DNA of 19,276 bases from Tubiluchus corallicola (Eukaryota; Animalia; Priapulida): NCBI GenBank assembly GCA_030141605.1, contig JAQGDQ010001958.1, forward strand, positions 1-19,276, in the 5' to 3' direction. The notes beneath the pieces were generated by a model that had not been told where the DNA came from, ran no database searches, and was given only the letters and a program-made list of their open reading frames with translations. Position 1 is the stretch's first letter. Every line of letters starts with the position of its first letter. Below are positions 1-17,908 of this stretch, piece by piece. Position numbers and translations under genes: made by a program.

Positions 1-946
1 TTTACCTTACAAACTTTAAGACTGGGTCCAGTTTACCTTACAAACTTTAAGACTGGGTCCAGTTTACCTGACAAACTTTAAGACTGGGTCCAGTTTACCT
101 GACAAACTTTAAGACTGGGTCCAGTTTACCTTACAAACTTTAAGACTGGGTCCAGTTTACCTTATAAACTTTAAGACTGGGTCCAGTTTACCTTACAAAC
201 TTTAAGATTGGGTCCAGTTTACCTTACAAACTTTAAGACTGGGTCCAGTTTACCTTACAAACTTTAAGACTGGGTCCAGTTTACCTTACAAACTTTAAGA
301 CTGGGTCCAGTTTACCTTACAAACTTTAAGATTGGGTCCAGTTTACCTTACAAACTTTAAGACTGGGTCCAGTTTACCTTACAAACTTTAAGACTGGGTC
401 CAGTTTACCTTACAAACTTTAAGATTGGGTCCAGTTTACCTGACAAACTTTAAGATTGGGTCCAGTTTACCTGACTTACTTTAAGATTGGGTCCAGTTTA
501 CCTTACAAACTTTAAGACTGGGTCCAGTTTACCTTACAAACTTTAAGACTGGGTCCAGTTTACCTGACAAACTTTAAGATTGGGTCCAGTTTACCTTACA
601 AACTTTAAGATTGGATCCAGTTTACCTTACAAACTTTAAGACTAGGTCCAGTTTACCTTACAAACTTTAAGATTGGGTCCAGTTTACCTGACAAACTTTA
701 AGATTGGGTCCAGTTTACCTTACAAACTTTAAGACTGGGTCCAGTTTACCTTACAAACTTTAAGACTGGGTCCAGTTTACCTTACAAACTTTAAGATTGG
801 GTCCAGTTTACCTGACAAACTTTAAGACTGGGTCCAGTTTACCTGACAAACTTTAAGACTGGGTCCAGTTTACCTTACAAACTTTAAGATTGGGTCCAGT
901 TTACCTTACAAACTTTAAGATTGGGTCCAGTTTACCTGACAAACTT
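1..946. repeat. 31-bp minisatellite, ~30 copies, truncated by the window start
   Basis: Unit TTTACCT(T/G)ACAAACTTTAAGA(C/T)TGGGTCCAG; runs up to the donor of exon I. Confidence 0.98.
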
Positions 947-948
947 AC

Positions 949-1053
949 CTTGATTAAGTCATTTTCGCTCGTCAACATCTGAACGGTTCCTTTCAAGTCG
1001 TCAATCTCGCGGATGTACTGCTTACACCTGTCTCTGCATTTATCACACGCCAC
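949..1053 (-). CDS. Coding exon I (105 nt): VACDKCRDRCKQYIREIDDLKGTVQMLTSENDLIK
   Basis: Acceptor ttttcctgtttaatag|GTG, donor AAG|gtaagt; phase 0-0. Confidence 0.9.
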
Positions 1054-1209
1054 CTATTAAACAGGAAAAAACACGTTAAATAAGAACATACGTTAGAATA
1101 CATTAATTATTTGTTGATACAGGGTGTCTCAAAAGTCACTATACACTTTAATTTCTGTTTGTTTTTCTAATTTTCTTACCGATACTGGCAAGCTCTTACA
1201 TGAATCACC

Positions 1210-1711
1210 AAAGTCGCAGGTAAAAAAGTCAAGAGAAAAAAAGTCACAGGTAAAAAGTCACAGGCAAAAAGTCACGAGTAAAAGTCACAGGCAAAAAAGT
1301 CACAGGTAAAAAGTCACGAGTAAAAAAGTCACAGGCAAAAAAGTCGCGAGTAAAGAAAGTCACAGGAAAAAAGTCACAGGTAAAAAGTCACGAGTAAAAG
1401 TCACAGGCAAAAAAGTCACGAGTAAAAAAGTCACAGGCAAAAAAGTCGCGAGTAAAGAAAGTCACAGGTAAAAAGCCACAAGTAAAAAAGTCACGAGTAA
1501 AAAAGTCACAGGAAAAAAGTCACATGCAAAAAAGTTAGTTGCAAAAAGTCACGAGTAAAAAAAGTCACAGGTAAAAAGTCATGAGTAAAAAAGTCACAGG
1601 CAAAAAAGTCACAGGTAAAAAGTCATGAGTAAAAAAGTCACAGAAAAAAGGCACAAGAAAAAAGAAATAACCCTAACCCTGTTGAAAATTAATTGTGACT
1701 TTATTGCCTGT
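1210..1711. repeat. Degenerate ~16-19-bp tandem repeat (AAAAAGTCACAGGT / AAAAAGTCACGAGT) with a (TAACCC)2 motif and a terminal inverted unit copy
   Basis: Array ~1210-1660; taaccctaaccct at 1668-1680; tgtgactttattgcctgt at 1694-1711 is the reverse complement of a unit with one mismatch. Confidence 0.85.
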
Positions 1712-2286
1712 CAACAGTAAACCTCATTACAATCATTAAATTAAAATAATTCGTATTGACTAATGACGAAGAGGCACTCGAGAGGAGGGAATAAATGAAA
1801 TGAAAGTTATGCATTATTGACTGTTAGTTATAATGTGTTAGTTAGTTAAATTAGGTGCTGTACCTCTCAGATACTAAGTGTTCGGTTGTGATGTAGCGCA
1901 CACATGCGTTATTAATCATTGTTAGTTTAACATTATTTTAGGTTTATAAGCTTTGTTCCCTAAAAACTTTAAGTTTAACAAACACGGTAGAACTTAAGTT
2001 GCCACATTAGTATTCTGAAGAAATTCACTTTCGCATGTTTGTATACGTATTCCGTAATCTCTGTAAATATTGCTGAGACACGCCTGTAATAATTATGTAA
2101 CAGTTGAGCAACTTTTAATGTTTAAATTCTACAGCATGTAGACTCAGCATGTGTACAATCATTACTGGCCAACACACTGATGGTCAAAGACAAAACCTAA
2201 TTCACCCCCCAAACTTCTCCAGCCCCACTTCCCCAAGCCAGATGTTACACAAACAATTGCTACTAATGTAACGTGTCGTAACTCAC

Positions 2287-2418
2287 AAAGTCGTCAGTGA
2301 AAGAGCTAGAAACCAAATCCGGATCGATTTCCGTGGTTACGGATATCCAGCTTCCCAAATCCCTGGCAGTCGTCTTCTTCATCAGCCGTTCGTTCTTTAT
2401 CCGGAGTTTCTCGCACTC
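2287..2418 (-). CDS. Coding exon H (132 nt): ECEKLRIKNERLMKKTTARDLGSWISVTTEIDPDLVSSSFTDDF
   Basis: Acceptor gttttcttacag|GAG, donor TTT|gtgagt; phase 0-0; its second half breaks the coiled-coil pattern. Confidence 0.88.
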
Positions 2419-2507
2419 CTGTAAGAAAACGTGCGTCACTTTTAGCGCGACGATGCAAAGTTAAGTTAGAACACGTTTAAAACAAGCATCCGTCGGTCTG
2501 TTTATGG

Positions 2508-15119: not shown

Positions 15120-15245
15120 CTCCGCTTCGTTAATCTGCTCTTTCAAGGATTCTAATTCGCCCTCCAGGGCGGCGTGAGCGTCCTTCAGCTGCTGTATCTC
15201 GCTGTTCTTCTTCTCCAGTGAAGCAGCAGAGTCGATTTCAATCTC
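15120..15245 (-). CDS. Coding exon B (126 nt): EIEIDSAASLEKKNSEIQQLKDAHAALEGELESLKEQINEAE
   Basis: Acceptor cctgtttgcttttag|GAG, donor GAG|gtaaga; phase 0-0. Confidence 0.93.
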
Positions 15246-16239
15246 CTAAAAGCAAACAGGAATAGATGTAAAATAAAAACGAACGAGGGGATTTATTTCT
15301 ATGTTTGCTAAGAATAAGCAAAATGTAAATTAATTTATGTTTGTGTACCAAAGTATGTGATATGTTAAACAAACATATGTTAGTAAAATCAAACATACAT
15401 TTACATCAGGTATGTAAGTAGTGTTAAATTGTTGAAGGAAGACTGGATGATTTTTCATACACTACCCCATTTTCAAGTCTGATAAAAGTTTATATTTCAA
15501 CACAATTAATACTGCAAAAGCGTTTCTGATAATTAAATAATAGATTAAAAACTTAATTAGTGGCGGGCGAGCCCAACTATTGATGACATCACAAACTAAC
15601 GTAATTTTCAACAGCAAAAATATTGCACGAGTGTGTTGCACGTGTTTGCAAAAGAGAAAATTGAAGTACAGAGCTACTGTAAGATATTCCGTGTGATATA
15701 TTGAACTGAGAGGTACAGCACTTGTTTTTTGTGCAATGCATTTCCAAAATGTCCATCTAACTAGCAAATGGCGAAATGCATGTAACGGTGAAAAACTAGA
15801 GGCGGGAACGAGAAATTGTGTTTGTCTGGTAATAATTCTTTCAGGTAAGTCATTTTTGAAAAAAATAGTATGTTCCTTTCAATATTTTAAAGATAAAATT
15901 GTTTTGACCTACAGTTTAAGATTGGGTCCAATTGTAGTTTAATCACATTAATTCATTTGAGAAGCGATGCATAACAAAATTATAAAATACTAAGCATATC
16001 TAAGCATTACAATAGAAAGGGGTGAGCATAGAACGTTGAAACTCGATTCAAAAGAGTTTTTTTAGTTTAAATTCGATCCTAAAATTATGCATTTCAATAA
16101 TTCACCACTTCAGGCTAAATACGTTCTTTATCATTAAAACGTCTAGCACGCATTTAGCTGTAATTTCTACGGATACTTATGTACTTTGCTTAAGTATAGA
16201 TCAGTTATTGAAAATGGATGTTACATTAGTAATAGTATA

Positions 16240-16897
16240 CAGTGTTCCCTCACTTAACACGGGTGTTCCCTTCCAGGCCCACCAGCGATAAGTGATTTTC
16301 CGCGAAGTTGGGACGCTATACTTATTTTAGTAGTTATACATTATTTTAAGTCTTTATAAGCCCTCCCCACACTCTTATACATAACCCTTTCCCATTCCCT
16401 TAATAACTTTTCCCATACTGTACATGTACCGTTTACAAAACTTTACTGAAATGTTCATAAAAATATTTTAAACTCTTAAACCTAGATACGTAATTTTAAA
16501 AATTTGACGTGTGTTGTGTACAATCTCACGTCGGCAAGTAGCATCTCAAGTGGGCGCAAATACTACATTTCGTATTTGGTGTGTATTCATCCGCCGAATA
16601 AATACACTATTTACAGTAAATGGTAATTTTTTATGATTTATAATATTCTTTTAATGTTGGAATTAACAGTTTTAATATATTTTTATACATTTTGTGATTT
16701 TTTATGCAAAATTCATCAAATCTATACATTACTGTACAATACGTACTACGCATGCGTAAAAATACTTTAGATGGAGTACCACAAAAACCCGCGAAACAGC
16801 GAAAATACTGCGATAAATATTTTACATTAATATTTTTGAAAACCCGAGAAACAGCGAGTCCGCAATAAACGAACCGCGAAGTATCGAGGGAACACTG
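16240..16897. mobile_element. Non-autonomous Tc1/mariner-superfamily (pogo/Tigger-like) MITE, 658 bp
   Basis: TIR CAGTGTTCCCTC (12 bp perfect, then degenerate), TA on both flanks, subterminal CCGCGAA motifs. Confidence 0.88.
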
Positions 16898-17340
16898 TAC
16901 ATATAACACGGGTTGTTCGTTTTGCTTAGTGTGGGCAAACATATACCAGGAGGTAGTGTAAGAAAATTAGGGTATGTGGAGTCAAAAGGGGATCCGGGGG
17001 CTTAGGTGACGAATTCCACAACGCATTGAAATCAGACTGTCTTAAAGAGATATTTAAGAAAAGTAAAACAAAGCTGCCTGCCACATCAGTTCAGTAACTT
17101 ATTTAAGAGAAGTAAAAGAAGGTTTTGGTGATTAAAGAGCAACATGCTTCAGACTTTTCAGACTGACTGCACAGTGTTCAGACACTCAGACATGTGCTTG
17201 ATGTTCGTCGTCATCATTAACACCGTTGCTAAATATTCTCATTATAAAACATTTCACTGTAATTCAAAGTAGCATAGAAATCAGCTGACAATCTCACTGA
17301 CTTGTAATAAAAAAAATCTGATTGCAAAATTAGTTGCAAT

Positions 17341-17803
17341 TATCAATCAATCAATCAATCAATCAATCAATCAATCAATCAATCAATCAATCAATCAATC
17401 AATCAATCAATCAATCAATCAATCAATCAATCAATCAATCAATCAATCAATCAATCAATCAATCAATCAATCAATCAATCAATCAATCAATCAATCAATC
17501 AATCAATCAATCAATCAATCAATCACTCAATCAATCAATCAATCAATCAAACAATCAATCAGTCAATCAATCAATCAATCAATCAATCAATCAATCAATC
17601 AATCAATCAATCAACCAACCAACCAACCAACCAACCAACCAATCAACCACTCACTCACTCACTCACTCACTCACTCACTCAATCAATCAATCAATCAATC
17701 AATCAATCAATCAATCAATCAATCAATCAATCAATCAACCAACCAACCAACCAACCAACCAATCAATCAATCAATCAATCAATCAATCAATCAATCAATC
17801 AAT
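17341..17803. repeat. Compound tetranucleotide microsatellite (AATC)n with (AACC)n and (ACTC)n blocks
   Basis: Directly visible; source of the SINQ-repeat ORF. Confidence 0.99.
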
Positions 17804-17815
17804 TAAAATCCATAC

Positions 17816-17908
17816 CTTGCATTTTCCCTGTAGTTTAATAATGTCCAGGTCCTTTGTTCTCAACTTGCTTTCAAGCTGTTGTAATTCTTCTTCCAGAACT
17901 TCCTTGGA
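17816..17908 (-). CDS. Coding exon A (93 nt): SKEVLEEELQQLESKLRTKDLDIIKLQGKCK
   Basis: Acceptor ttcttgtttttag|TCC, donor AAG|gtatgg; open, phase 0-0. Confidence 0.9.

What the first reader, a model, noticed from the sequence alone, without database searches (positions are those of the whole stretch)
1..17830. Tandem arrays recurrently anchored on splice junctions, with units made of splice signals
Seen: 5 of the 18 splice junctions have an array within ~16 nt. Three overlap the site itself (donor 948, donor 7546, acceptor 13744) and two start 12-16 nt away (donors 13626, 17815). The three overlapping arrays are unrelated in sequence, yet each unit repeats the same class of signal as the site it touches, on the pre-mRNA strand, and the exon-proximal copy is always the best consensus match: GTAAGT vs GTAAAC, GTACGT vs GTACGG, TTTCAG|G vs TTTAG|C. 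Inference: either a mutational process seeds duplications at exon/intron borders and selection keeps only those extending into the intron with weaker copies, or these are decoy splice-site arrays whose copy number tunes splicing. It echoes the tandem-duplication (AG|GT proto-splice-site) model of intron gain.
Basis: partly seen in the sequence, partly recalled or inferred. Interest (0 to 1): 0.8.

Follow-up and report, generated by a model that had tools for sequence, protein, structure and literature searches.

The report
Minisatellites hugging short intron stubs
Five tandem repeats sit right beside exon edges of a repeat-bloated animal gene, but only one copies a splice signal (together with the end of a mobile-type repeat), and they are likely neutral by-products of local duplication, of a kind already known from human and lancelet genes, rather than decoys that tune splicing.

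Summary
The gene is real: nine minus-strand, phase-0, GT-AG exons give 367 open codons, and a spliced contig from a related lineage supports 6 of 18 junctions. Arrays lie within 20 nt of 5 of 18 junctions against about 0.5 expected (post hoc p 4e-5 to 1.5e-3). 'Units made of splice signals' mostly fails. Only the 68-mer spans its junction: 3 exon nt, about 49 nt of intron and 16 nt of a high-copy repeat's end. The 31-mer starts at intron +3, and its donor-like motif is not a copy of the real donor. The 39-mer's AG arises at the unit joint. Arrays far from junctions carry equally strong donor motifs, two on the wrong strand. Every internal site tested gives a frameshift or stop. Depth suggests many 68-mer copies in one sample and about one in another. 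If native introns were 100-200 nt, as two appear to be, the excess disappears. The 68-mer is an F7/ABCA7/'mirage'-type VNTR; the scan has noted that type in at least 11 other genomes.

The parts
17816..17908 (-). exon a (93 nt, phase 0)
   Evidence: no RNA test
15120..15245 (-). exon b (126 nt)
   Evidence: no RNA test
13627..13743 (-). exon c (117 nt)
   Evidence: no RNA test
9518..9643 (-). exon d (126 nt)
   Evidence: no RNA test
7547..7663 (-). exon e (117 nt); donor 7546
   Evidence: loose end of X6 contig behind 4404 matches 7549-7578 at 29 of 30 letters
4217..4402 (-). exon g (186 nt)
   Evidence: X6 record 25
2900..2998 (-). exon h (99 nt)
   Evidence: X6 record 25
2287..2418 (-). exon i (132 nt)
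   Evidence: X6 record 25
949..1053 (-). exon j (105 nt); donor 948
   Evidence: i-to-j join only consistent with 3 shared letters; donor not tested by RNA
1..946 (-). 31-nt minisatellite, 30.5 copies, cut by the window edge; starts at intron +3; 16 nt of the unit recur at 15915-15930
6327..7549 (-). 68-nt minisatellite, 18 copies: 3 exon nt + donor + about 49 nt intron + 16 nt end of a dispersed repeat; the only array that spans its junction
5995..6342 (.). dispersed repeat (6110-6342 hundreds to over a thousand times single-copy depth; 5995-6090 lower), family end at 6342 followed by TA; supplies the last 16 nt of the 68-mer
   Evidence: tables 2 and 7
13747..14294 (-). 39-nt U-rich minisatellite, 14 copies; ends 3 nt before acceptor 13744
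12891..13608 (.). (CTG)n/(CTA)n microsatellite ending 18 nt from donor 13626
17342..17803 (.). (ATCA)n microsatellite ending 12 nt from donor 17815
12083..12378 (.). control: 44-nt minisatellite far from any modelled exon, with donor-like motifs on both strands and a perfect in-register GTAAGT at its edge
4484..5990 (.). control: 32-nt minisatellite, 47 copies, 81 nt from acceptor 4403, strong donor-like motif on the antisense strand only

Best explanation
These are ordinary, likely neutral intronic mini- and microsatellites: one (68 nt) copies the exon end and donor, the others only abut a junction, and they likely sit there because the original introns were short stubs that mobile repeats later inflated, so a local duplication of native intron DNA would land next to an exon. 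Steps: (1) shown - the 68-mer unit is exon end + donor + about 49 nt of intron + the end of a high-copy repeat; (2) inferred - a 68-nt duplication reaching from the exon end to the repeat end seeded it, and unequal exchange or slippage amplified it (neighbouring units are more alike than distant ones); (3) inferred - the 31-mer arose likewise from a stub plus a 16-nt piece found again in the window, and the 39-mer from a U-rich tract; (4) inferred from known cases - expansions into coding sequence are purged, and intron-ward ones are tolerated because the exon-proximal site is chosen and rare use of inner sites gives NMD substrates. The proximal site looks best because it is the only one under selection and edge units escape homogenisation.
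For: Unit anatomy. Arrays fill 42% of non-exon bases. Low-copy stubs are short where depth was seen: intron h-g has near single-copy depth only at about 2999-3080 and near 4184-4216; intron e-g has about 49 nt plus at most 81 nt outside arrays and the repeat. With native length capped at 100-200 nt, P(4 or more of 16) is 0.67-0.16. 68-mer depth is roughly 10-15 times single-copy in sample S1 and about 1 times in run X3, whose cover stops at 6386, exactly where proximal and inner units differ by one base. Adjacent 68-mer units are more alike than chance (0 of 2000 permutations). F7 minigenes use only the most upstream donor (PMC1557585, passages); lancelet mirages do not disturb splicing.
Against: The short-stub null is an assumption; depth was seen for only parts of four introns, and with caps of 500 nt or more, or one array per intron at 200 nt or more, the excess stays (p 0.02 or less). 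It does not explain why arrays should seed in native rather than repeat-derived DNA. Neighbour similarity was not significant for the 31-, 32- and 39-mers (p 0.33, 0.07, 0.37). The 31-mer's link to a dispersed repeat rests on one exact 16-mer and failed a local-alignment test (score 28 vs shuffles up to 36). Contig depth is a rough measure. The spliced contig is from a diverged lineage whose DNA may lack the arrays.
Confidence: 0.6

Rival explanations
1. A mutational bias seeds duplications at splice junctions, mostly donors (for example breaks or polymerase stalls linked to co-transcriptional splicing, or repair at a nearby transposon end), giving a true genome-wide excess.
For: Uniform-null p 4e-5 to 1.5e-3; 3 of 10 minisatellites have an edge within 5 nt of a junction vs 0.12 expected; 4 of the 5 cases are donors; tandem repeats are denser towards intron ends in 31 plants and algae (PMC3887541, passages).
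Against: One window, picked after the fact from a scan of some 250,000; the excess vanishes under a short-stub null; the five arrays share no sequence or unit type.
Confidence: 0.15
2. Coincidence: an array-dense gene happened to have several edges near junctions and was selected for that reason.
For: 14 arrays fill 42% of non-exon DNA; p depends on the distance chosen (0.02 at 10 nt, 0.11 at 200 nt); 2 of 3 'overlaps' do not include the GT or AG; the 44-mer shows the same 'best motif at the edge' pattern with no good exon beside it.
Against: p stays below 0.03 for all thresholds from 5 to 100 nt; the 68-mer demonstrably copies the donor.
Confidence: 0.15
3. Decoy arrays: copy number tunes the amount of productive mRNA through U1 competition or NMD-coupled use of inner sites.
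For: 17 inner copies of the 68-mer keep an intact AAG|GTACGG (5.0 vs 5.6 bits). Length of the donor-spanning ABCA7 VNTR correlates with skipping of the next exon (PMC5954066, passages); thousands of human splicing-associated repeats exist (PMC10078293, passages).
Against: No detectable conservation of donor columns (P=0.25); one sample seems to have a single unit; equally strong motifs on the antisense strand of other arrays; F7 pseudo-sites do not compete even when strengthened.
Confidence: 0.07
4. The arrays are intermediates of intron gain by duplication of an AG|GT proto-splice site, or are assembly artefacts.
For: The 68-mer unit carries AAG|GT, a CTAAC and two AG, and looks like a minimal intron; such a route was proposed for mirages and for Drosophila.
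Against: The open frame beyond the 68-mer is a high-copy repeat, not an exon; the same exon join is used in a diverged lineage; units differ by 3-8% and are multi-copy in independent short-read contigs.
Confidence: 0.03

Closest known systems
Human F7 IVS7 37-bp VNTR, with CBS IVS13, 6-16, LMNB2 and PDGF as listed there (PMC1557585; abstract and 12 passages read)
   Same: First unit spans the exon-intron boundary with a few exon bases; donor reiterated in the intron; proximal site used.
   Different: Only the 68-mer matches. Its unit also holds the end of a dispersed repeat, and inner copies carry one extra base. Choice among sites was not tested in an array-bearing animal.
Lancelet 'mirages' in Adh3, globins, TnC and PGBD5 (PMC3087553, 6 passages; PMC3902484, 1 passage)
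   Same: Invertebrate minisatellites at 5' and 3' boundaries, several loci per genome, length-unstable, edge units excluded from homogenisation, splicing undisturbed, already linked to the Rogers intron-gain idea.
   Different: Mirages include exon sequence; here 1 of 5 arrays does. No enrichment statistic was seen in the passages read.
ABCA7 intron 18 25-bp VNTR (PMC5954066; 12 passages)
   Same: Array begins at the donor; use of the next unit's donor gives an out-of-frame transcript.
   Different: There length correlates with exon 19 skipping; no such data exist here.
Enrichment of tandem repeats towards intron ends in 31 plant and algal genomes (PMC3887541; 12 passages)
   Same: Repeats lie nearer junctions than mid-intron.
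   Different: Measured in relative intron position, mostly short motifs, not within 20 nt and not in animals.
Minisatellites derived from transposable-element ends (review PMC9659126; 12 passages)
   Same: Element termini often supply monomers.
   Different: Here the monomer joins an element end to a host exon end and donor.

Membership tests
Boundary-spanning VNTR (F7 type / mirage) | First unit spans the exon-intron boundary: 68-mer | tested here: met
   3 exon nt + GT in all 18 units
Boundary-spanning VNTR (F7 type / mirage) | First unit spans the boundary: 31-mer and 39-mer | tested here: not met
   31-mer starts at +3; 39-mer ends at -4
Boundary-spanning VNTR (F7 type / mirage) | Splice signal reiterated in register | tested here: met
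   68-mer only: 17 inner AAG|GTACGG vs real AAG|GTACGT
Boundary-spanning VNTR (F7 type / mirage) | Authentic proximal site is the one used | tested here: inconclusive
   X6 contig uses donor 7546, but comes from a diverged lineage whose array state is unknown
Boundary-spanning VNTR (F7 type / mirage) | Variable copy number | tested here: inconclusive
   18 in the window, roughly 10-15 times single-copy depth in S1, about 1 in X3; contig depth only
[quoted passage not shown] | New intron made of duplicated exon sequence and bounded by the two AG|GT copies | tested here: not met
   Units are mostly intron and repeat DNA; the intron's acceptor (4403) lies about 1.9 kb beyond the array
Splicing-regulatory tandem repeat (spl-TR, ABCA7 type) | Splicing changes with allele length | not testable with these tools
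   No matched DNA and RNA; no raw RNA reads listed
Tc1/mariner/pogo-type element (for 6110-6342) | Terminal inverted repeats and TA target duplication | tested here: inconclusive
   High copy and one sharp end followed by TA; the other end was not found; the family label is recalled and comes from no call

The most novel reading that the evidence does not exclude
In this animal genome splice donors are true birthplaces of minisatellites: when a transposon lands a few dozen bases from a donor, the stub between exon and element end is duplicated and amplified, giving chimaeric 'exon end + donor + element end' arrays at many genes, a more than ten-fold genome-wide excess, and a natural allelic series (1 to 18 donor copies) for testing splice-site choice.
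Probability: 0.15. Interest if true: 0.55.

Novelty: new member of a known kind. Interest (0 to 1): 0.22.

Why it matters
As it stands it adds one clear invertebrate example of a donor-spanning VNTR, with a readable origin (exon end to element end) and a hint of an unexpanded allele. If the excess held genome-wide against a stub-matched null it would point to a mutational link between splice sites, nearby transposon ends and minisatellite birth, which I did not see quantified for an animal in the searches made.

Tried and rejected
No genome is held for this window, so the genome-wide test could not be run. Protein identity: exon g found no relative (17 candidates, none at E 1 or less; 0 hits among 1.84 billion; one weak 0.75 atlas hit); 9 exons gave no Pfam match above cut-off, only weak coiled-coil-type hits in 7 of 9. 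No RNA holder was listed as such. Run X5 did not cover the exons. I suspected a hidden 90-nt exon at 6237-6326 that would make the 68-mer a whole amplified mini-intron; one search showed a high-copy repeat there, so I rejected it. A hidden exon beside the 44-mer's edge donor (12379) was not among the 10 candidates of the exon scan, and by eye it has no good acceptor. Local alignment of the 31-mer to the rest of the window was not significant. Look-ups of earlier findings by sequence, by place near, by 'minisatellite' in this genome and by the enrichment wording returned nothing. Zhuo et al. 2007 (PMC1783408) is not held and was not read. PMC13174678, PMC12855859 and the Chlamydomonas v6 preprint were read in passages and add only background. 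No supplements were opened.
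Full report
Gene model. The window is AT-rich (GC 0.26-0.46 by 500-nt bin). Nine minus-strand exons, all phase 0 and all GT-AG, give 367 codons without a stop, 58% E/K/Q/R/L/A with one proline: a fragment of a coiled-coil protein. An independent scan for AG..GT open stretches returned 10 candidates, 7 of them modelled exons and the top six all modelled. The protein was not identified. Earlier scan notes call this genome likely priapulid; I did not test that.

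RNA support. One 943-nt contig of run X6 (RNA is the tool's guess) lies on 4217-4404, 2899-2998 and 2284-2417 as contiguous record positions, skipping the introns. Its loose end behind 4404 matches 7549-7578 at 29 of 30 letters, so exon e joins exon g at donor 7546. That supports 6 of 18 junctions directly and is consistent with 2 more. Donors 948, 13626, 17815 and acceptor 13744 were not tested. X6 differs from the window at 23 of 134, 6 of 100 and 23 of 188 exon letters, so it is another lineage and may lack the arrays.

Proximity. Fourteen merged TRF arrays (score 50 or more) fill 42% of non-exon bases. Edges lie within 20 nt of 5 of 18 junctions. Placing arrays at random in the array-free part of their own intron gives 0.47 expected against 4 seen for the 16 junctions of complete introns (p about 5e-4); the range over array sets and treatment of the two cut introns is 3.5e-5 to 1.5e-3 at 20 nt. 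Minisatellites alone (2 of 8 within 5 nt, p 0.004) and microsatellites alone (2 of 4 within 20 nt, p 0.001) each show it. The threshold and the window were both chosen after the fact: p is 0.02 at 10 nt and 0.11 at 200 nt.

Register. Laid unit by unit on the pre-mRNA strand, the three 'overlapping' arrays differ. The 68-mer includes AAG and the donor in all 18 units; the 17 inner units carry one extra base after +5. The 31-mer starts at +3. Its AG|GTAAAC sits 13 nt downstream of the real donor in the proximal unit as in the others, so it is not a weakened copy of GTAAGT; one inner unit has even gained AAA|GTAAGT. The 39-mer stops at -4; its TTTAG is made where one unit's TATTT meets the next unit's AGCC, which comes from the distal flank. 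So 1 of 3 is a true boundary duplication.

Signal content. With an approximate weight matrix (human-like weights from memory), I scored one unit of each of 10 arrays against circularised intron segments of equal length. Donor-like motifs: 68-mer 5.0 bits (none of 2970 as high), 31-mer 3.0 (3%), but also the mid-intron 44-mer 3.7 sense (2%) and 5.1 antisense, and the 32-mer 4.4 antisense (0.6%). The 39-mer's acceptor scores 0.0 (24%). Strong donor-like motifs are thus common in this gene's arrays whatever their place or strand.

Origin of the 68-mer. Laying contigs on 5995-6400 shows that 6110-6342 is a dispersed repeat, with summed depth up to 280,000 in X2 where low-copy contigs run at 98-197. 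Family copies end at 6341-6342 and then diverge, and TA follows in the window. The unit is therefore 3 exon nt, about 49 intron nt and 16 nt of the repeat's end. In the unit's unique part depth is 102-116 in X1 and about 2300-2400 in X2 (one sample; roughly 10-15 times single copy), which argues against an assembly artefact. In X3, another sample, it is 8.88, like most of its low-copy contigs (6.6-9.8 in 5 of 8 listed, others 12-38), and it drops to 0 from 6387, the position of the extra base that marks inner units. Neighbouring units are more alike than shuffled order (0 of 2000), and the nine donor columns are invariant but no more than chance (9 of 68 columns vary; P=0.25). The 31-mer may have the same anatomy: 16 nt of it recur exactly at 15915-15930 (12 matches, 11 in the array; none in 200 shuffles), though a local-alignment test was not significant.

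Why near exons. Depth suggests short native introns. Intron h-g (1218 nt) is near single-copy only at about 2999-3080 and near exon g; intron e-g (3144 nt) has about 49 nt and at most 81 nt outside arrays and the repeat. If the 12 arrays were seeded in native stubs totalling 100, 150, 200, 300 or 500 nt per intron, P(4 or more) is 0.67, 0.32, 0.16, 0.05 and 0.009; with one array per intron it is 0.20, 0.06, 0.02, 0.005 and 0.0007. So a short-stub history can absorb the excess but is not proven, and some arrays are surely not native-seeded.

Consequences of inner sites. All 8 inner donors tested in the 31-mer, all 5 in the 68-mer and all 13 TTAG acceptors in the 39-mer give a frameshift or a stop. 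No protein isoform ladder is possible from those; at most a loss of mRNA.

Comparison. Minisatellites whose first unit spans a donor are known in F7, CBS, 6-16, LMNB2 and PDGF, and F7 minigenes use only the most upstream site even when later ones are strengthened (PMC1557585). Lancelet mirages cover both boundary types, vary in length, spare splicing, and were already tied to the proto-splice-site model (PMC3087553; PMC3902484). ABCA7 shows that such an array can shift splicing. Repeat enrichment towards intron ends is reported for plants and algae. The scan itself holds 11 similar notes from at least 11 genomes (8 shown); they led me to two of these papers and are not evidence. My searches did not turn up a genome-wide test of this in an invertebrate; most subscription papers are outside the library.

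Verdict. The proximity is real and above a naive null, one array is a clear new member of a known class with an unusually readable origin, and the broader claim that the units are made of the matching splice signal does not hold. Neutral local duplication in short stubs with a selective filter is the best reading (0.6). A border-linked mutational bias remains open (0.15) and needs the genome. Interest 0.22.

Noticed in passing
window 12364-12378: Perfect short palindrome GGTAAG-GTA-CTTACC at the edge of the 44-mer array; it gives donor-like motifs on both strands and could have seeded slippage.
   Followed up: partly
window 15915-15930: Exact 16-nt match to the 31-mer unit 15 kb away; a perfect donor-like CAG|GTAAGT lies on the + strand at about 15842-15850.
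   Followed up: partly
window 3080-4200: Nested high-copy repeats (summed depth up to 1.5 million in X2) fill most of intron h-g.
   Followed up: partly
window 1210-1680: Degenerate 15-nt array followed by TAACCCTAACCC, probably carried by a mobile element (resemblance recalled, not tested).
   Followed up: no
window 14612-14856: Inverted repeat with 83-nt arms, 78% complementary; the arms look tRNA-like by eye.
   Followed up: no
window 8943-9424: Element with matching ends (CAGGGGTGTGCAAATT ... ATTTGCACACCCCTG), MITE-like by eye.
   Followed up: no
runs X2, X3, X6 on window 1700-4450: DNA contigs differ from the window by 0-6% in low-copy stretches, while the spliced contig under the same species label differs by 6-17% in exons: high polymorphism and probably cryptic lineages.
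   Followed up: no
window about 470-480: One inner unit of the 31-mer has gained AAA|GTAAGT, a consensus donor hexamer.
   Followed up: partly
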